Of a stretch of DNA of 64,000 nt, positions 15,502-18,952 are shown piece by piece. A model generated the notes under the pieces. That model saw nothing but the letters and a program-made list of their open reading frames with translations. It did no database searches and was not told the DNA's origin. The DNA lies in the NCBI GenBank assembly GCA_048940645.1, contig JBHLOI010000004.1, positions 27,966 to 91,965 of the forward strand, in the 5' to 3' direction. Source of the DNA: Promethearchaeota archaeon (GTDB lineage: Archaea > Asgardarchaeota > Lokiarchaeia > Sigyniarchaeales > SOKP01). Position 1 is the first letter of the stretch. Each line of letters starts with the position of its first letter. Made by a program: the position numbers and the translations under genes.

Positions 15502-16077
15502 ATGTTGGAAGCAATTCGTAAATTTGCGAGAGAAAATTCCGAATCTGATGATATTCATGGATTTCCTCACGTTGAAAGAGTATATAATTTGTGTCTTAAA
15601 ATAGGAAAAAAATTAGATGCTGATATTAAAATATTAAATATTGCAGCATTACTTCATGATATCGGAAGAAATAAAGAAGGAGTAAACACCTTTAACAGAA
15701 ATCATGCTGAAATTTCTGCAGAATTAGCAATTAACTTTTTAACTAACGTAGATATTGGACTCCCTAAAGAGAGTTTTGAGAATATTATTCATTGTATAAA
15801 AGCTCATTCTTTTTCAAACAAGTTAAAGCCTAAAACTCTGGAAGCAAAAATTTTGTCTGATGCAGACAAACTGGATGCATTAGGAGCTATTGGTTTATAT
15901 CGTACAATAGGATTTACAGTTAAAAGTAGGGGTGGAGTTGATCAGGTGATTGAACATTTGGAGAACAAAATAATGAAATTGAAAAGTCAGATTTATTTAG
16001 ACATTTCAAAAGAAATTGCAATAAAACGTGAAAAAATAATAGTGAAGTTTTATCATCAAATTATTGATGAAAGATAA
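15502..16077 (+). CDS. HD-domain metal-dependent phosphohydrolase
   Basis: The motifs are HGFPHVERV ... AALLHDIGR ... DADKLDALGAIG, a classic H..HD..D pattern. Confidence 0.8.
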   Translation: MLEAIRKFARENSESDDIHGFPHVERVYNLCLKIGKKLDADIKILNIAALLHDIGRNKEGVNTFNRNHAEISAELAINFLTNVDIGLPKESFENIIHCIKAHSFSNKLKPKTLEAKILSDADKLDALGAIGLYRTIGFTVKSRGGVDQVIEHLENKIMKLKSQIYLDISKEIAIKREKIIVKFYHQIIDER

Positions 16078-16131: not shown

Positions 16132-16293
16132 TTGGAGAAGCTTGCGGATCATTTTCACAAATCATTAGATGATGCGAGAAGGTGGATTAAAGATCCTGAT
16201 GAATTAGAAACTGCACTTAAAGCTTTAAGTAATCGAGAGAAATCGGTGCTAACTTTAATTTCTAACCTTGATCAAGTAGAAGGTATTATGTAA
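16132..16293 (+). CDS. Possible small ORF (TTG start), in frame with and directly after the HD-domain gene stop
   Basis: There are 71 stop-free codons after TAA 16075..16077 in a genome where stop triplets are frequent. The peptide is helical-looking (LEKLADHFHKSLDDARRWIKDPDELETALKALSNREKSVLTLISNLDQVEGIM). There is no ATG. Confidence 0.25.
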   Translation: MEKLADHFHKSLDDARRWIKDPDELETALKALSNREKSVLTLISNLDQVEGIM

Positions 16294-16315: not shown

Positions 16316-17518
16316 TTAACTAATTCTCAATATTATACTTAACAAGATTGGAAATTTTTCTTCAGACCCCCAAATCACATAGATTTTATCATCAATTGGT
16401 ATAGCAACATGCTTTGCCGCAACAATCCAATCTGTTCCAATATTATTCGCCGTTTTAGTATCTTCTTTAAATTTTAGATGCATAATTGCTCCAAAATAAT
16501 CACTTATTGTTGTATGAGTGATTTTAATATCCTTTAAATCTGGATTTGTGAATTCTTCTTTTATTGGATCTGGCTGTAAATGTCCTTTTAGTTTCTCGTA
16601 CGACAGTTGTAAAGCTGCTTGAATGATGACTTCTTCTTTCACAGCTTTATCATATTCAAATATAATAAGCCCACAATCTTTTTCAACTCCAATTATTCCT
16701 AAAGCGTTATATTCTTTTGAAACATCAATCCAACCATTTTCTGAACTCTCACCCATTATATATCTAAAAGATTTTAGAATCTTTAACTCATCTTCCCTTT
16801 CACTAATTATATTATCAATAACTTCATTGAGAGGTCTAGCAACATAGATCATTGTACCTGTTGGGCGTTCCATGACTTTATCAACCCATCTTTTATTAAT
16901 TAACCGTTCAATGATCCTATAAATTGTCGTTCTCTTGATATTCAGTTTTTTATTAAGATTTCCGACCTTTTCTCCTTTTTCACCAATCTGAAGTAGAGTC
17001 AAATACACCTTTGCCTCTTCAAGTGTTAATCCAACCTTCAATAAACCTAATCTTTGTAAGTTCTGAGTGTCATCTAGCAAAACTTTTGGAGTAGCCCATT
17101 TAATCTCTTTAATTTTACCTAAACTTGTATGGGGATCTAAATAAGGATCCTTTTTACGTAGTTCTCCTAAAGTCCTTGAAGCATCCATTAAACCTAATAG
17201 TATTGTATCTCCAGGCTCTATTCTACAGATAATTCTCCTCTCATCATCCTTAAATCCAATGATACTACCTCTTTTTTCTAAATTCATAGCAACAAGCCTT
17301 TCATATGAAACTTGTATAATTTTGTATTTAATTTTATCAATAAGAAGCTCTCCGAGTTCTTGTGAATCCCATAAAGAATTAATTTCTTCTAAATCATCAG
17401 TAATATCCCAATTATCAGATGAATAGACTATTTTACTATTTCCTTCAATAATGATTGTTGAGATAATTCTAGATTCAGGTGTAAGAAATTTATCTAACCT
17501 GTTGATAATTTTTTCCAA
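16316..17518 (-). CDS. TrmB-family winged-helix regulator with N-terminal profilin-like (or roadblock-like) alpha/beta domain
   Basis: Residues ~160-225, LTLEEAKVYLTLLQIGEKGEKVGNLNKKLNIKRTTIYRIIERLINKRWVDKV, form a TrmB-type wHTH. Residues 1-122 follow the profilin order: N-helix, STIIIEGNSKIVYSS, ITDDLEEINSLW, LLIDKIKYKIIQ, three strands, then the C-helix GLMDASRTLGELRK. It has a TTG start preceded by AAGGAGAA and lies 60 nt downstream of actin. Confidence 0.6.
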   Translation of the reverse strand: MEKIINRLDKFLTPESRIISTIIIEGNSKIVYSSDNWDITDDLEEINSLWDSQELGELLIDKIKYKIIQVSYERLVAMNLEKRGSIIGFKDDERRIICRIEPGDTILLGLMDASRTLGELRKKDPYLDPHTSLGKIKEIKWATPKVLLDDTQNLQRLGLLKVGLTLEEAKVYLTLLQIGEKGEKVGNLNKKLNIKRTTIYRIIERLINKRWVDKVMERPTGTMIYVARPLNEVIDNIISEREDELKILKSFRYIMGESSENGWIDVSKEYNALGIIGVEKDCGLIIFEYDKAVKEEVIIQAALQLSYEKLKGHLQPDPIKEEFTNPDLKDIKITHTTISDYFGAIMHLKFKEDTKTANNIGTDWIVAAKHVAIPIDDKIYVIWGSEEKFPILLSIILRIS

Positions 17519-17578
17519 TTCTCCTTAACCTCCTTTTTAAAATGGAATAAAAAAAATTGAAAATATTAAAATATTTCA

Positions 17579-18715
17579 TTAAAAACACCTATGTATTATT
17601 TTAGGGCCAAATTCTTTATATTCACGTCGAGTAATCCACATCCTATGAAATGTCTTTAATGATCCTAAAATTGAGCCTCCAATCCACACTGAATACATAC
17701 GTTCTGGTGGACTGATAATTCTTACTTCTACGGATTCAGAAATCATTTCCTTTATCTCTTTTGTTAATCTTTCCTTAATACCTGGAAACATAGTAGAACC
17801 ACCTGACAATACAATATTGCTATAAAGGTCTCTTCGAAGGTCAACATCACATTCAGATATAGCGCTTACAATAAGATCATCAATTGGGTCTAACTCTTTT
17901 CCTATCACTGATGGATTGAAAAAACATTCAGGAGCTAAGAATCTCTCTATTCCTAAGCTAACAGTTTCTCCATCCGGAAGCATAAATAATTTTTCCATTC
18001 CAGCAACTTTCTTAGAAAGTAATAATTCTTTTTCTGGATCTATTGCAACATAACATAGCTTTTCTTTAATATCTCTTACAATTTCAATTTCAGCAGTTGA
18101 GGTGAATGAATAACCTTTTTGTCTTAGCAACCTTTGTAAATATTTTGTAACGTCTCTTCCTGCTAGATCTATTCTTTGTATAGCATGGCTCAATGCAAAT
18201 CCTTCATATATCGGAACAATATGAGACACTCCATCGCCAATATCTATTACAGTTCCTGTTGTTCTTCCTGAAGCATATAAAGATAACACTGCTTGCATTG
18301 CAATGTACAATGCAGGTACATTAAATGTCTCAAACATGATTTCTGCCATTTTCTCTCTATTTTGTCGCGGATTCAATGGTGCTTCTGTAAGGAGTATCGG
18401 ATGTTCTGAAGGATCAATTCTTAGGTCAGTATAATATGTATAATGCCATAATTTTTCCATAGCAGGCCAATCTTCTACAATACCATGTTCGATCGGAAAT
18501 TTAAGACTTAAAAGACCTCTAAGTTCCATTGCCTCTTCTCCAATATAATAATCTCTAGAAAAATGTTTTACATCTGGCATCACAGTTCCATATTTTGGAG
18601 TACCAATCATGGTAGGAAAAACCGATCGTGGTTGATCTTCTCCACCAAAACCGTTTTTGGAAATTCCTGTTCCATTATCTAAAATAATAGCCCTATTAAA
18701 TTTTAATTCTTCCAT
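17579..18715 (-). CDS. Actin, eukaryote-like (Lokiactin type)
   Basis: It has long near-identical blocks to eukaryotic actin: [153 protein letters not shown]. Confidence 0.95.
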
Positions 18716-18896
18716 AATTTATTCCTCCACCAATTTTTTTTCGAAATTATATGCTAATTTTTCACAATAGAAATTTAAAATAATGGAATATAAAAATAAA
18801 TTGGTTTATAGTTAAATCCAAGAACTATTTTAGTATCTATTGATGAATTACAGCATATAATTATAATATGATAAAATAAATTTAACTATTTAAATG

Positions 18897-18927
18897 TTGT
18901 CACAATATTGTCGCATCATTGCGACAA
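18897..18927. promoter_or_regulatory. GC-rich direct + inverted repeat (TTGTCACA-ATA-TTGTCGCA-TCAT-TGCGACAA) upstream of actin
   Basis: A perfect 8-bp inverted repeat with a 4-nt spacer lies at 18908..18927, preceded by a near-copy of the half-site at 18897..18904. It is ~190-210 nt upstream of the actin start and 26 nt downstream of the stop of the preceding gene. It stands out in otherwise AT-rich spacer. Confidence 0.35.
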
Positions 18928-18952
18928 ATGAATATATATTCATAAACTAGAT

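What the first reader, a model, noticed from the sequence alone, without database searches (positions are those of the whole stretch)
16316..17518. Profilin-like domain fused to a TrmB-type DNA-binding domain, encoded directly behind the actin gene
**Seen in sequence**
- The first ~120 residues of the 400-aa protein follow the profilin secondary-structure and motif order:
  - N-terminal helix (MEKIINRLDKFL)
  - STIIIEGNSKIVYSS (compare AAIIGHDGSVWAQS)
  - an acidic helix ITDDLEEINSLW
  - LLIDKIKYKIIQ (compare LHLGGIKYMVIQ)
  - three strands, RLVAMNLEKRGSIIGFKDDERRIICRIEPG
  - a C-terminal helix (LMDASRTLGELRK)
- A clear TrmB-type winged helix follows at aa ~160-225, then a ~170-aa C-terminal domain I cannot assign.
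- The gene starts with TTG behind AAGGAGAA, only 60 nt after the stop of the Lokiactin-type actin gene on the same strand. This suggests co-transcription.

**Established knowledge**
- Asgard archaea encode stand-alone profilins that regulate their actins.
- TrmB proteins are ligand-controlled transcription factors.

**Inference**
- A DNA-binding protein with an actin-monomer-binding-type sensor domain could couple the G-actin pool to transcription. That would be a functional analogue of eukaryotic G-actin sensing by MRTF-SRF, and I am not aware of one described in archaea.
- The fold call is made by eye. A roadblock/LC7 or longin-like fold is the main alternative.
Basis: partly seen in the sequence, partly recalled or inferred. 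Interest (0 to 1): 0.85.

Follow-up and report, generated by a model that had tools for sequence, protein, structure and literature searches.

The report
Profilin-fused regulator of Asgard actin gene
Directly behind the actin gene of an Asgard archaeon lies a conserved DNA-binding protein whose front end is a true profilin (an actin-monomer-binding domain), and a matching conserved DNA palindrome sits on the actin promoter, which suggests that these relatives of eukaryotes adjust actin production by sensing actin itself.

Summary
ORF 16316-17518 (minus strand, TTG start, 400 aa) lies 60 nt behind a Lokiactin-type actin gene.

- **Domains:** Residues 1-122 are homologous to solved Asgard profilins (profile E = 2.5e-14; Foldseek TM 0.77 to Odin profilin). 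Roadblock is clearly worse. Residues 158-228 are a TrmB-type winged helix, followed by a coiled coil. The C-terminal alpha/beta domain has no known relative.
- **Conservation:** The family is full-length conserved in Asgard genomes. Actin lies directly upstream in 43 of 44 loci.
- **New finding:** Every testable actin promoter next to a regulator carries a palindrome (TGTCAC-N6-GTGACA; TGTCGC-N6-GCGACA plus a third half-site in this window) abutting the BRE/TATA box. It resembles the TrmBL1 operator TATCAC-N5-GTGATA.
- **Specificity:** A metagenome-wide scan for operator+TATA hit 33 sites, and all 30 testable ones are actin promoters. Three actin genes without the regulator lack the operator.

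Best reading: a dedicated, probably autoregulated, actin-gene regulator whose profilin domain reports the actin monomer pool. Actin binding, DNA binding and the sign of regulation are untested. I found no description of it in the literature I could search.

The parts
16316..17518 (-). Whole regulator gene (400 aa + stop), TTG start
   Evidence: ORF; 154 homologues at E<=1e-3; nearly all of the 120 listed are full-length, 45-100% identity; alignment A1, 34 invariant columns
17153..17518 (-). Residues 1-122: profilin domain (helix, 2 strands, helix, 5 strands, helix)
   Evidence: E down to 2.5e-14 against Loki/Odin/Thor profilins in the PDB; model pLDDT about 83; Foldseek TM 0.77 to 5zza_P; invariant W37 and R94 and the KYxIIQ strand
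17048..17152 (-). Residues 123-157: linker. Predicted disordered yet nearly invariant in sequence (PY..LGK...KWATP..LLDDT.NLQ.LG)
   Evidence: pLDDT <50 for 124-157; P125, Y126, L133, G134, K135, K140, W141, T143, P144, L147, L154, Q155 conserved at 90% or more
16835..17047 (-). Residues 158-228: TrmB-type winged helix-turn-helix. Recognition helix KRTTIYRI is invariant across the family
   Evidence: PF01978, E=1.8e-11, 44.1 bits against a cut-off of 25.6; K195, R196, T197, I199, Y200, R201, I202 invariant
16751..16834 (-). Residues 229-256: long helix, probably a coiled-coil dimerisation helix as in TrmB
   Evidence: helix 230-255; the TrmB review describes such a helix after the wHTH (PMC4158304)
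16319..16750 (-). Residues 257-400: family-specific alpha/beta C-terminal domain of unknown function. It is not the TrmB sugar-binding domain
   Evidence: core pLDDT 85-96; no PDB match better than E=0.01, TM about 0.3; 32 relatives in 1.84e9 representatives, all either this family or its profilin-less paralogue
17519..17578 (-). 60-nt actin-regulator spacer: second stop codon (TGA), T8 tract at 17549-17556, Shine-Dalgarno GGAGG at 17529-17533, no TATA-like box
   Evidence: all short spacers carry T8-T13 followed by an SD
17579..18715 (-). Lokiactin-type actin gene (378 aa, ATG start): the presumed target and presumed ligand
   Evidence: 77-98% identical actin directly upstream of the regulator in 42 of the 43 syntenic loci, 59% in the divergent L043
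18908..18927 (-). Candidate operator: perfect palindrome TTGTCGC-AATGAT-GCGACAA, 193-212 nt upstream of the actin ATG
   Evidence: arms conserved, spacer free, both arms changed symmetrically relative to TGTCAC/GTGACA in L006 and most other lineages
18897..18904 (-). Third half-site TGTGACAA, 11 nt downstream of the proximal arm and 2 nt before the TATA box. It overlaps the expected BRE position
   Evidence: a GTGACAA half-site 2-4 nt upstream of TTTAAATA is common to nearly all lineages
18887..18894 (-). TATA-like box TTTAAATA of the actin promoter. It implies a 5' leader of about 145 nt
   Evidence: invariant in 7 related loci. The position of BRE/TATA relative to the start site is taken from PMC4158304. 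The transcription start site is inferred, not measured

Best explanation
The gene encodes a dedicated transcriptional regulator of the adjacent Lokiactin gene.

**Proposed mechanism**
- It dimerises through the helix that follows its TrmB-type winged helix.
- It binds the conserved palindrome (TGTCAC-N6-GTGACA; here TGTCGC-N6-GCGACA plus a third half-site) that abuts, and partly overlaps, the BRE/TATA box of the actin promoter.
- Its N-terminal profilin domain, tethered by a conserved flexible linker, binds monomeric actin.
- Actin occupancy changes what the DNA-bound dimer does to TFB/TBP recruitment. Actin transcription is therefore fed back on the free-actin pool.
- The regulator's own transcription also depends on that pool, because it is made by attenuated read-through from the same promoter.

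**What is shown and what is inferred**
- Shown: domain identities, synteny, and the existence, position, conservation and target specificity of the operator.
- Inferred: that this protein binds that operator, that the profilin domain binds actin, and that the loop is negative.
For: 1. The profilin domain is a true homologue of Asgard profilins that were crystallised on actin.
   - It is bridged by a ~200-aa paralogue that matches full-length Odin profilin at E=8.9e-15.
   - The signature Trp (W37), the KYxIIQ strand and the ERL[IV]A strand are conserved.
2. The TrmB wHTH has an invariant recognition helix, followed by a long helix.
3. Synteny is strict.
   - Actin lies directly upstream on the same strand in 43 of 44 loci. 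The one exception has only 756 nt of upstream DNA.
   - The regulator follows actin in 9 of 9 operator-seeded loci with room.
4. The exact pattern GTCAC-N4-9-GTGAC occurs once per locus in 31 loci of up to 13 kb. Every occurrence is 88-241 nt upstream of actin and next to TTTAAATA. Variants are present in the remaining testable loci.
5. In the window, the only two matches in 64 kb at up to 2 mismatches lie at this promoter.
6. Arms are conserved, the spacer varies freely, and the arm change is symmetric. That is the signature of a dimeric binding site.
7. The half-site matches the TrmBL1/Tgr operator TATCAC-N5-GTGATA in 5 of 6 bases, and TrmB-family operators sit at BRE/TATA (PMC4158304).
8. 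A scan of 241 million metagenome records for operator+TATA gave 33 hits. All 30 testable ones are actin promoters, which argues for a single-target regulator.
9. Three actin genes without the regulator (one in L085, two in L088) have no half-site upstream.
10. The spacer architecture (oligo-T, then SD, no promoter) fits low-level coupled expression.
Against: - There is no direct evidence for actin binding or DNA binding.
- Pfam's Profilin model does not hit the domain.
- The loop after the ERL[IV]A strand, which contacts actin in eukaryotic profilins (my own knowledge of 2BTF), varies within the family.
- The motifs most specific to the family (the GFKDEER hairpin and the linker) have no counterpart in characterised profilins, so the ligand could have changed.
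- The window clade's palindrome differs from the consensus although the recognition helix is invariant.
- The operator could belong to a different factor.
- Neither neighbour of Lokiactin in L. ossiferum appears in the stored part of a published Lokiactin co-IP table. I could not establish which neighbour, if either, is the orthologue.
- The operator position (centre about -42, overlapping the BRE) is compatible with either activation or repression, so the sign of the loop is a guess.
- The negative set for operator/regulator co-occurrence is only two loci.
Confidence: 0.47

Rival explanations
1. It is a dedicated regulator of the actin promoter, but the profilin-derived domain no longer binds actin. 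Instead it senses something else (a phosphoinositide, a proline-rich partner, a small molecule) or serves only in oligomerisation. The circuit would then control actin expression in response to an external cue rather than to actin itself.
For: - The profilin fold class is widely used as a ligand sensor. Weak whole-chain Foldseek resemblance to CodY (GAF + wHTH) appears.
- Asgard profilins also bind PIP2 and polyproline (PMC8410842).
- The family-specific conserved motifs (GFKDEER, the linker) are absent from actin-binding profilins, and the loop after the ERL[IV]A strand varies.
- Pfam's Profilin model misses the domain.
- The uncharacterised C-domain could be the real effector domain.
Against: - Sequence homology is specifically to actin-binding Asgard profilins, not to generic sensors.
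- Near-universal adjacency to actin, and a regulon that looks like one gene, actin itself, are most simply explained if actin is also the signal.
Confidence: 0.25
2. The protein binds actin through its profilin domain, but the conserved palindrome belongs to another transcription factor. The wHTH would then bind elsewhere or non-specifically, for example tethering actin monomers or filament ends to the nucleoid. Synteny would reflect only co-expression of an actin-binding protein with actin.
For: - No experiment links this protein to this operator.
- A second invariant palindrome (TGAATA-N2-TATTCA, 18929-18942) shows that other factors probably act at the same promoter.
- The recognition helix is invariant while the operator arms differ between clades.
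Against: - The half-site closely resembles a proven TrmB-family operator.
- The operator is absent from the three actin genes that lack the regulator and present in every testable locus that has it.
- Fixed 2-4 nt spacing to the TATA box across lineages with about 40% protein identity argues for a local, specific partner encoded in cis.
Confidence: 0.12
3. It is a ParR-like adaptor. The layout (cis site, then actin, then a DNA-binding adaptor with a barbed-end-binding domain) mirrors parC-parM-parR. A dimer bound at the palindrome would present two profilin domains to the two terminal subunits of a Lokiactin filament. That would couple a chromosomal locus to growing filaments for DNA positioning or segregation, with promoter regulation as a side effect, as in ParMRC.
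For: - The gene order and the cis site overlapping the promoter are as in type II partition loci (my own knowledge of ParMRC).
- Profilin binds the barbed face of actin, the face that corresponds to where ParR engages ParM (my own knowledge).
- The architecture is dimeric, with long flexible linkers.
- The cis site is single-copy and highly conserved.
Against: - There are only two or three half-sites, not an iteron array.
- The strictly fixed distance to the TATA box suggests transcription is the selected function.
- Lokiactin is an abundant cytoskeletal protein of cell bodies and protrusions (PMC9834061). It is not a dedicated segregation motor.
- There is no evidence of filament-end binding.
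Confidence: 0.08
4. The N-terminal domain is a roadblock/LC7 or longin-type domain rather than a profilin.
For: Roadblock2 of MK-D1 appears in the Foldseek list (rank 43, E=2.9e-3, TM 0.66). asCOG work lumps profilins into a Roadblock/LC7 superfamily (bioRxiv 10.1101/2020.10.19.343400).
Against: - Sequence profiles hit only profilins (E=2.5e-14 to 6.7e-9), with no roadblock or longin below 0.1.
- The top 33 structural matches are all profilins, with better TM and rmsd.
Confidence: 0.02

Closest known systems
TrmB family regulators, especially TrmBL1 (Pyrococcus furiosus) and Tgr (Thermococcus kodakarensis)
   Same: - PF01978 winged helix followed by a dimerisation helix.
- A palindromic operator with a TCAC/GTGA core (TGM, TATCAC-N5-GTGATA) placed at the BRE/TATA box.
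- Autoregulation has been proposed for Tgr (PMC4158304).
   Different: - The DNA-binding domain is internal rather than N-terminal.
- There is no TrmB sugar-binding effector domain (PF11495). In its place is an unrelated, family-specific C-domain.
- The sensor candidate is a profilin domain at the N-terminus.
- The operator spacer is N6 rather than N5.
- The apparent regulon is a single cytoskeletal gene rather than sugar metabolism.
Free-standing Asgard profilins (Loki profilin-1/-2, Odin, Thor, Heimdall; PDB 5YED/5YEE, 5ZZB, 5ZZA, 7PBH, 6YRR)
   Same: Homologous sequence and fold, including the NW[DNS][ILV] Trp motif, the KYxI(I/L)Q strand and the ERL[IV]A strand.
   Different: - Covalently fused to a DNA-binding module.
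- Carries its own conserved GFKDEER hairpin and SSKKPY tail. These are shared only with a ~200-aa 'profilin + helical tail' paralogue.
- Actin binding is untested.
MRTF-SRF G-actin sensing in animals
   Same: The logic only: a transcription regulator carries actin-monomer-binding elements, and actin genes are among its targets, so the monomer pool feeds back on actin transcription (my own knowledge).
   Different: - Unrelated proteins: RPEL motifs and a MADS-box partner, against a profilin domain and a wHTH in one chain.
- MRTF works by nucleo-cytoplasmic shuttling, which cannot apply here.
- Nothing here has been tested experimentally.
ParMRC type II plasmid partition (parC-parM-parR)
   Same: The order is a cis DNA site overlapping the promoter, then an actin-fold ATPase, then a small DNA-binding adaptor that also contacts the filament (my own knowledge).
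   Different: - Chromosomal and single-copy, with 2-3 half-sites rather than iterons.
- The actin is the main cytoskeletal actin.
- The adaptor's filament-binding module is a profilin, not a C-terminal peptide.
CodY (GAF sensor + wHTH) and other one-component regulators
   Same: An N-terminal alpha/beta sensor domain of the profilin-like fold class is linked to a wHTH. There is weak whole-chain structural resemblance (ranks 34-49, TM about 0.2).
   Different: No sequence relationship. CodY senses small molecules (branched-chain amino acids and GTP, my own knowledge). Here the inferred ligand is a 42-kDa protein.

Membership tests
Profilin (Asgard/eukaryotic profilin superfamily) | Sequence homology to bona fide profilins | tested here: met
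   Profile of residues 1-125 against PDB sequences: 5yed_A 2.5e-14, 5zzb_A 6.6e-13, 5zza_P 2.5e-11, 7pbh_A 6.7e-9, nothing else below 0.1. Single-sequence search: 1.9e-6. Bridging paralogue P0156 against 5zza_P: 8.9e-15.
Profilin (Asgard/eukaryotic profilin superfamily) | Profilin fold (N- and C-terminal helices packed on an antiparallel sheet) | tested here: met
   AF2 N-domain pLDDT about 83, with the secondary-structure order helix, 2 strands, helix, 5 strands, helix. Foldseek: 5zza_P TM 0.77, rmsd 2.5; yeast profilin 1ypr TM 0.73; ranks 1-33 are all profilins.
Profilin (Asgard/eukaryotic profilin superfamily) | Match to the curated Pfam Profilin model | tested here: not met
   No Pfam family at E<=1 for residues 1-125 except a spurious EF-hand hit. 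Whether characterised Asgard profilins themselves pass this model was not tested.
Profilin (Asgard/eukaryotic profilin superfamily) | Binds monomeric actin at the barbed face and modulates polymerisation | not testable with these tools
   The structure tool returns no contacts or PAE, so a co-fold could not be evaluated. Only indirect support is available: homology, and synteny with actin.
TrmB family transcription regulators | TrmB-type winged helix-turn-helix (PF01978) | tested here: met
   E=1.8e-11, 44.1 bits against a cut-off of 25.6, residues 160-228. Precomputed PF01978 on essentially all homologues.
TrmB family transcription regulators | Amphipathic coiled-coil dimerisation helix directly after the wHTH | tested here: inconclusive
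   A helix at 230-255 is predicted in both models, but only at pLDDT about 45-60. Dimerisation itself was not tested. The feature is described in PMC4158304.
TrmB family transcription regulators | C-terminal TrmB effector (sugar)-binding domain, PF11495 | tested here: not met
   No Pfam hit in residues 227-400. The C-domain model has no TrmB structure among its Foldseek matches. The review notes that many proteins carry only the TrmB DBD, so this protein is a member at the DBD level only.
TrmB family transcription regulators | Palindromic operator at or near the BRE/TATA box of target promoters | tested here: inconclusive
   A conserved palindrome of TGM-like sequence abuts the actin TATA box. 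Binding by this protein has not been shown.
Roadblock/LC7 or longin domain | Best sequence and structure matches are roadblock or longin proteins | tested here: not met
   No roadblock or longin hit in the PDB sequence search. Roadblock2 appears only at rank 43 with rmsd 5.7.
ParMRC-type partition locus | Centromere made of multiple iterated repeats upstream of the actin-like gene | tested here: not met
   Only one palindrome, plus at most one extra half-site. There is no repeat array.
MRTF-SRF-type G-actin sensor | RPEL actin-binding motifs and a MADS-box DNA-binding partner | tested here: not met
   Pfam and NCBIfam scans of the whole protein report only wHTH families. The resemblance is functional logic only.

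The most novel reading that the evidence does not exclude
The locus is an archaeal chromosomal counterpart of a ParMRC system built from eukaryote-type parts. The dimeric regulator bound at the palindrome presents two profilin domains to the barbed end of a Lokiactin filament, physically coupling a defined chromosomal site to actin polymerisation for DNA positioning or segregation, and at the same time autoregulating the operon. None of my evidence excludes this: there is a cis site, an actin, an adaptor with a barbed-face-binding domain, a predicted dimer and flexible linkers. The small size of the site and its fixed spacing to the TATA box make a purely transcriptional role more likely.
Probability: 0.08. 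Interest if true: 0.95.

Novelty: new variant of a known kind. Interest (0 to 1): 0.85.

Why it matters
Lokiactin is the closest prokaryotic relative of eukaryotic actin and one of the most abundant proteins in cultured Asgard archaea. How its level and dynamics are controlled is unknown beyond free-standing profilins and gelsolins.

This locus offers a compact, conserved and directly testable circuit with three parts:
- one promoter with a defined 40-bp control region;
- one regulator whose sensor domain is homologous to an actin-monomer binder;
- read-through coupling of the regulator to its target.

If actin is the ligand, this would be, to my knowledge, the first prokaryotic transcription factor that reads the state of the cytoskeleton. 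[quoted passage not shown]

There are practical gains as well:
- The operator and regulator are candidate parts for controllable gene expression in Asgard genetics.
- The gene pair is a clean synteny marker for the principal actin gene.
- The family adds three undescribed members to the Asgard profilin repertoire (the fusion, a profilin-plus-helical-tail protein, and insertion-bearing variants), which profilin censuses based on free-standing proteins would miss.

Tried and rejected
- **Actin + N-domain co-fold.** I prepared a paired, linker-joined alignment from 41 syntenic loci but did not submit it. I used the second job on the C-domain instead.
- **C-domain identification.** This led nowhere beyond 'novel'. 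There was no Pfam hit, the weak BofC_C hit sits far below its cut-off, and Foldseek gave at best E=0.01 (DcrB, EagT6, PsbP).
- **WH2 motif in the linker.** I considered whether '...LLDDT.NLQ.LGLLK[VF]G' is a WH2-like actin-binding motif and rejected it. 'L..LGL(T/S)..EA.VY' is the ordinary first helix of TrmB-type domains, and the Pfam match starts there.
- **Rfam scan of the locus and the long actin leader.** Only a miRNA hit far below its gathering score, which I treat as spurious.
- **Experimental cross-check in L. ossiferum.** Lokiactin is GNAMCCOK_03343. Neighbours 03344 and 03345 are expressed, but neither is in the stored part of the co-IP sheet, and I could not establish orthology. Cluster look-ups gave no accession from a cultured strain.
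- **Literature.** Eight searches and seven papers read found no description of a profilin-wHTH fusion or of an actin-promoter operator. Akil & Robinson 2018 is not held.
- **L062.** It looked like an interrupted actin gene but is a chimeric contig.
- **Source organism names.** I did not use them to define the phyletic range. Proteins 81-90% identical to the window's carry Hod-, Odin-, Hermod- and Promethearchaeota labels, which cannot all be right.
Full report
**1. The observation**

The window carries, on the minus strand, a 400-codon ORF (16316..17518) that starts with TTG. A 378-codon actin gene (17579..18715) lies 60 nt upstream of it on the same strand. The TTG is preceded by AGGAGGTTAAGGAGAA. 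Homologues start MEK... with ATG at the aligned position, and close relatives keep both the TTG and the distal GGAGG.

The actin matches Pfam Actin at E=3.8e-130. Among solved structures it is closest to an entry named 'HC1 actin' (E=5.8e-179) and then to eukaryotic actins at about 1e-156, so it is a Lokiactin-type actin.

**2. The N-terminal domain is a profilin**

- Pfam and NCBIfam see nothing in residues 1-125.
- phmmer against all PDB sequences returns only four significant hits: 5ZZA chain P, 5ZZB, 7PBH and 5YED (E=1.9e-6 to 2.6e-5).
- A profile of 26 family members raises these to 2.5e-14 (5YED), 6.6e-13 (5ZZB), 2.5e-11 (5ZZA_P, covering residues 17-118 of 121) and 6.7e-9 (7PBH). The next hit is at 0.17.
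- Foldseek names these entries as LokiProfilin1, the LokiProfilin2/rabbit actin complex, the OdinProfilin/rabbit actin complex and Thorarchaeota profilin.
- With the AF2 model (N-domain pLDDT about 83) these are the top matches (TM up to 0.77, rmsd 2.5), followed by yeast, plant, amoeba and human profilins. The first roadblock protein appears at rank 43 with rmsd 5.7.
- The motifs shared with the solved profilins are the NW(D/N/S)(I/L/V) turn with its invariant Trp, the KYxI(I/L)Q strand and the ERL(I/V)A strand.

**3. The rest of the protein**

- **Residues 160-228** match the TrmB wHTH above Pfam's cut-off. The recognition helix KRTTIYRI is invariant in 44 diverse homologues.
- **Residues 230-255** form a long helix, in the position where TrmB has its coiled-coil dimerisation helix (PMC4158304).
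- **Residues 124-157**, the linker, are predicted to be disordered, yet they are among the most conserved parts of the protein. That suggests a docking segment.
- **Residues 257-400**, the C-terminal domain, model confidently on their own (core pLDDT 85-96).
  - It has no structural relative better than E=0.01, TM about 0.3, and no Pfam match.
  - An exhaustive HMMER search of 1.84 billion representative proteins finds only 32 relatives.
  - These are either profilin-bearing proteins of 387-517 aa or a 283-302-aa paralogue with the same wHTH, helix and C-domain but no profilin domain. L045 encodes such a paralogue away from any actin gene.

So the protein is TrmB-like only in its DNA-binding domain. 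The profilin domain looks like an addition to a pre-existing regulator scaffold.

**4. Family and synteny**

- The full-length protein has 154 homologues at E<=1e-3. Nearly all of the 120 listed are full-length, at 45-100% identity. The sources that name them call them only 'helix-turn-helix domain-containing protein' or 'TrmB', and those that name an organism place them in Asgard MAGs.
- In one-genome-per-species contigs, 46 loci were recovered, all titled as Asgard-lineage MAGs or 'uncultured archaeon'. In 43 of the 44 with a full-length homologue, an actin lies directly upstream on the same strand, 77-98% identical to the window's in 42 loci and 59% in the divergent L043. The exception has only 756 nt of upstream DNA.
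- An HD-domain gene like the window's 15502-16077 recurs downstream on the opposite strand in 33 of these loci.
- The actin-regulator spacing falls into two classes.
  - Short spacers (45-92 nt, as here) contain a T8-T13 tract right after the actin stop, then a Shine-Dalgarno sequence, and usually no TATA-like box.
  - Long spacers (225-600 nt) hold an additional small conserved ORF (see section 8).
- By my own knowledge, oligo-T is the archaeal intrinsic termination signal. I therefore read the short class as attenuated read-through: much actin mRNA, little regulator mRNA, both from the actin promoter.

**5. A conserved operator on the actin promoter (new)**

- Reading the actin upstream regions revealed a palindrome next to a TTTAAATA box.
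- The exact pattern GTCAC-N4-9-GTGAC occurs exactly once in each of 31 loci of up to 13 kb. Every occurrence is 88-241 nt upstream of the actin start and is followed by AA-NN(N)-TTTAAATA.
- The remaining testable loci have variants.
- The window and its clade read TTGTCGC-N6-GCGACAA, then TAT-TGTGACAA, then CA-TTTAAATA (18927..18887, minus strand). The palindrome is perfect, with both arms changed symmetrically, and a canonical third half-site lies 11 nt downstream.
- These are the only two matches at up to 2 mismatches in the 64-kb window. The chance mean is 0.7, though 17 of 100 shuffles reach 2, so the window alone is not decisive.
- An alignment of seven related promoters shows conserved arms, a freely varying spacer and an invariant TATA box.
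- The AA of the proximal half-site falls where the BRE adenines at -34/-33 are expected. The palindrome centre is therefore near -42, overlapping the BRE.
- The half-site matches the Thermococcales glycolytic motif TATCAC-N5-GTGATA, bound by the TrmB-family proteins TrmBL1 and Tgr, in five of six positions. For those proteins, sites upstream of BRE/TATA activate and sites downstream repress (PMC4158304).

**6. Specificity and co-occurrence**

- *Operator-seeded test.* A scan of 241 million metagenome records for GTCAC-N6-GTGACAA-NN-TTTAAATA gave 33 stretches.
  - 30 have actin starting 85-233 nt downstream.
  - The other three end less than 270 nt after the motif and cannot be judged.
  - The regulator follows actin in all 9 loci that have enough DNA after the actin stop.
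  - With this architecture, then, the operator is found only at actin promoters.
- *Actin-seeded test.* I took six Lokiactin-type genes, chosen only for long contigs.
  - Four show actin, then the small ORF, then the regulator, with the operator present. One of these (L089) has it as a spaced variant.
  - Two loci lack the regulator: L085, and L088 with two actin genes. None of their three actin upstream regions contains even a half-site.
  - Operator and regulator therefore co-occur, although the negative set is small.

**7. Mechanism**

The best-supported model is a one-gene feedback circuit.

- *Shown:* a profilin-homologous domain; a TrmB wHTH with an invariant recognition helix; near-obligate adjacency to actin; a dimer-type, TGM-like operator abutting the actin BRE/TATA box; the operator's restriction to actin promoters and its co-occurrence with the regulator; and a spacer architecture compatible with coupled low-level expression.
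- *Inferred:* that the protein binds this operator as a dimer, that the profilin domain binds G-actin, and that occupancy alters TFB/TBP recruitment so that excess monomer lowers transcription. The sign is a guess, because the operator position permits either activation or repression.
- *Against:*
  - There is no binding data.
  - Pfam's Profilin model misses the domain.
  - The loop after the ERL(I/V)A strand varies.
  - The most family-specific conserved motifs (the GFKDEER hairpin and the linker) have no counterpart in characterised profilins.
  - Neither neighbour of Lokiactin (GNAMCCOK_03343) in L. ossiferum appears in the stored part of a published Lokiactin co-IP table. I could not establish which neighbour is the orthologue. 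Tag 03344 has mean log2 abundance 20.7 and tag 03345 has 15.6, both measured in the whole proteome (bioRxiv 10.1101/2025.11.30.690169).
- *Rivals, in order:*
  1. The same regulator with a non-actin ligand.
  2. An actin binder whose wHTH does not use this operator.
  3. A ParR-like DNA-filament adaptor. The layout (cis site, actin, adaptor) mirrors parC-parM-parR.
  4. A roadblock fold, which is rejected.

**8. Relatives of the profilin domain, and other things seen**

- Searching with the N-domain profile uncovered a ~190-220-aa family. It consists of a profilin domain plus a conserved ~55-aa helical tail, and it carries the same KDEERKII hairpin and SSKKPY tail as the regulator. It matches full-length Odin profilin at E=8.9e-15 and is not linked to actin. 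It bridges the regulator's domain to classical profilins.
- Some family members carry 50-100-aa coiled-coil insertions after the second helix of the profilin domain.
- In the long-spacer lineages, a 54-83-aa ORF (…RIKLIDGIPCI…MPxYFTxIQESKE…LxELKKKF) with no Pfam family sits between actin and the regulator. The window lacks it.
- In about 35 loci the actin reading frame begins at ATT, 7-9 nt after GAGGTGG, with no in-frame ATG, GTG or TTG. Orthologues have ATG or TTG at exactly that codon.

**9. Novelty**

Eight full-text searches and seven papers read turned up no mention of a profilin-wHTH fusion, of a conserved actin-neighbour regulator, or of an actin-promoter operator. The papers read included two 2026 papers on Asgard archaea (an EMBO Journal review, and a Nature Microbiology study predicting eukaryotic signature proteins by structural modelling), the asCOG preprint, the Heimdall profilin census of 256 Asgard profilins, and the 2025 Lokiactin co-IP preprint. 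The library lacks most subscription papers, and Akil & Robinson 2018 could not be read, so prior mention cannot be excluded.

I rate it a new variant of a known kind: a one-component, TrmB-type regulator with an unprecedented sensor domain and target. It is of high interest because it makes control of actin expression in the closest archaeal relatives of eukaryotes directly testable.

Noticed in passing
L014, L017, L018, L020-L024, L027, L030, L031, L047, L048, L050-L052, L061-L066, L071, L073, L078 and others (actin start regions); not the window, whose actin starts with ATG at 18715: In about 35 loci the Lokiactin frame begins at ATT (gaGGTGGttttaaa-ATT-TCA-GTC-AAC-GGG = I-S-V-N-G). There is no in-frame ATG, GTG or TTG before the DNGTG motif. 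Orthologues have ATG or TTG at exactly this codon. A weak AUU start on one of the most abundant proteins hints at translational control.
   Followed up: partly
L012-L014, L016-L024, L026, L027, L029, L032, L033, L037, L039, L041-L044, L082, L084, L087, L089 (between actin and regulator): A small conserved ORF of 54-83 aa (M.RIKLIDGIPCI.LDDGII...MP.YFT.IQESKE..Y..VL.ELKKKF) sits between actin and the regulator in the long-spacer lineages, with two copies in L044. It has no Pfam family. It is absent from the window and from short-spacer loci.
   Followed up: partly
window 18929-18942 (-): A second palindrome, TGAATATATATTCA (TGAATA-N2-TATTCA), lies immediately upstream of the operator. Its arms are invariant in the window and six related loci. 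It may be the site of another factor at the actin promoter.
   Followed up: no
P0156, P0158, P0162, P0165, P0166, P0172, P0174 (loci L080, L081): An undescribed ~190-220-aa Asgard family: a profilin domain (E=8.9e-15 to Odin profilin) plus a low-complexity linker and a conserved ~55-aa helical tail (VDPQL..EI..FL.WIKDP.GL.GYINYYL...). It has no Pfam hit, is annotated as hypothetical, and is not next to actin.
   Followed up: partly
L045 5947-6837 (+); P0136, P0138, P0140, P0142: A profilin-less paralogue of 283-302 aa with the same wHTH, helix and C-domain. It has a different recognition helix (GRTTIYAI / SRTTLYGI) and is not next to actin.
   Followed up: partly
window 15502-16077 (+): An HD-domain phosphohydrolase gene (Pfam HD, E=9.9e-16) recurs just downstream of the regulator, on the opposite strand, in 33 of the 44 related genome loci and in 2 of the actin-seeded loci. 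It may be a conserved third member of the neighbourhood.
   Followed up: no
P0077, P0079-P0081, P0083 (about 50 aa) and P0125 (about 100 aa): Some regulators carry long, charged, coiled-coil-like insertions inside the profilin domain, after its second helix (after W50). That is about where Loki profilins have their 'Loki loop'.
   Followed up: no
window 17549-17556 (-), and the equivalent position in all short-spacer loci: A T8-T13 tract lies directly after the actin stop codon(s). In the window the stop is TAA followed immediately by TGA. It is probably a leaky archaeal terminator that sets the actin:regulator transcript ratio.
   Followed up: partly
window 16132-16293 (+): An unlisted 53-codon frame (TTG start...LADHFHKSLDDARRWIKDPDELETALKALSNREKSVLTLISNLDQVEGIM) fills the gap between the HD gene and the regulator's stop. 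That gap is about 450 nt wider in the window's clade than in loci such as L004, where the HD gene ends about 48 nt after the regulator. I read it by eye and did not test it.
   Followed up: no
L003, L004, L005 against L001, L002, L028 (record titles): Regulators 78-90% identical to the window's, next to actins 93-99% identical, are deposited under Hodarchaeota, Hermodarchaeota, Odinarchaeota and Promethearchaeota labels. Submitter taxonomy for these MAGs is unreliable and should not be used to infer the family's phyletic range.
   Followed up: no
L062 (Ga0209536_100066612): A chimeric metagenome contig. After about codon 65 of actin the sequence switches abruptly to GC-rich unrelated DNA.
   Followed up: yes
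L088 788-1933 and 3501-4661: Two Lokiactin-type genes (381 and 386 aa) lie 1.6 kb apart on one contig. There is no regulator, no small ORF and no operator, so this looks like a lineage with duplicated, differently controlled actin genes.
   Followed up: partly
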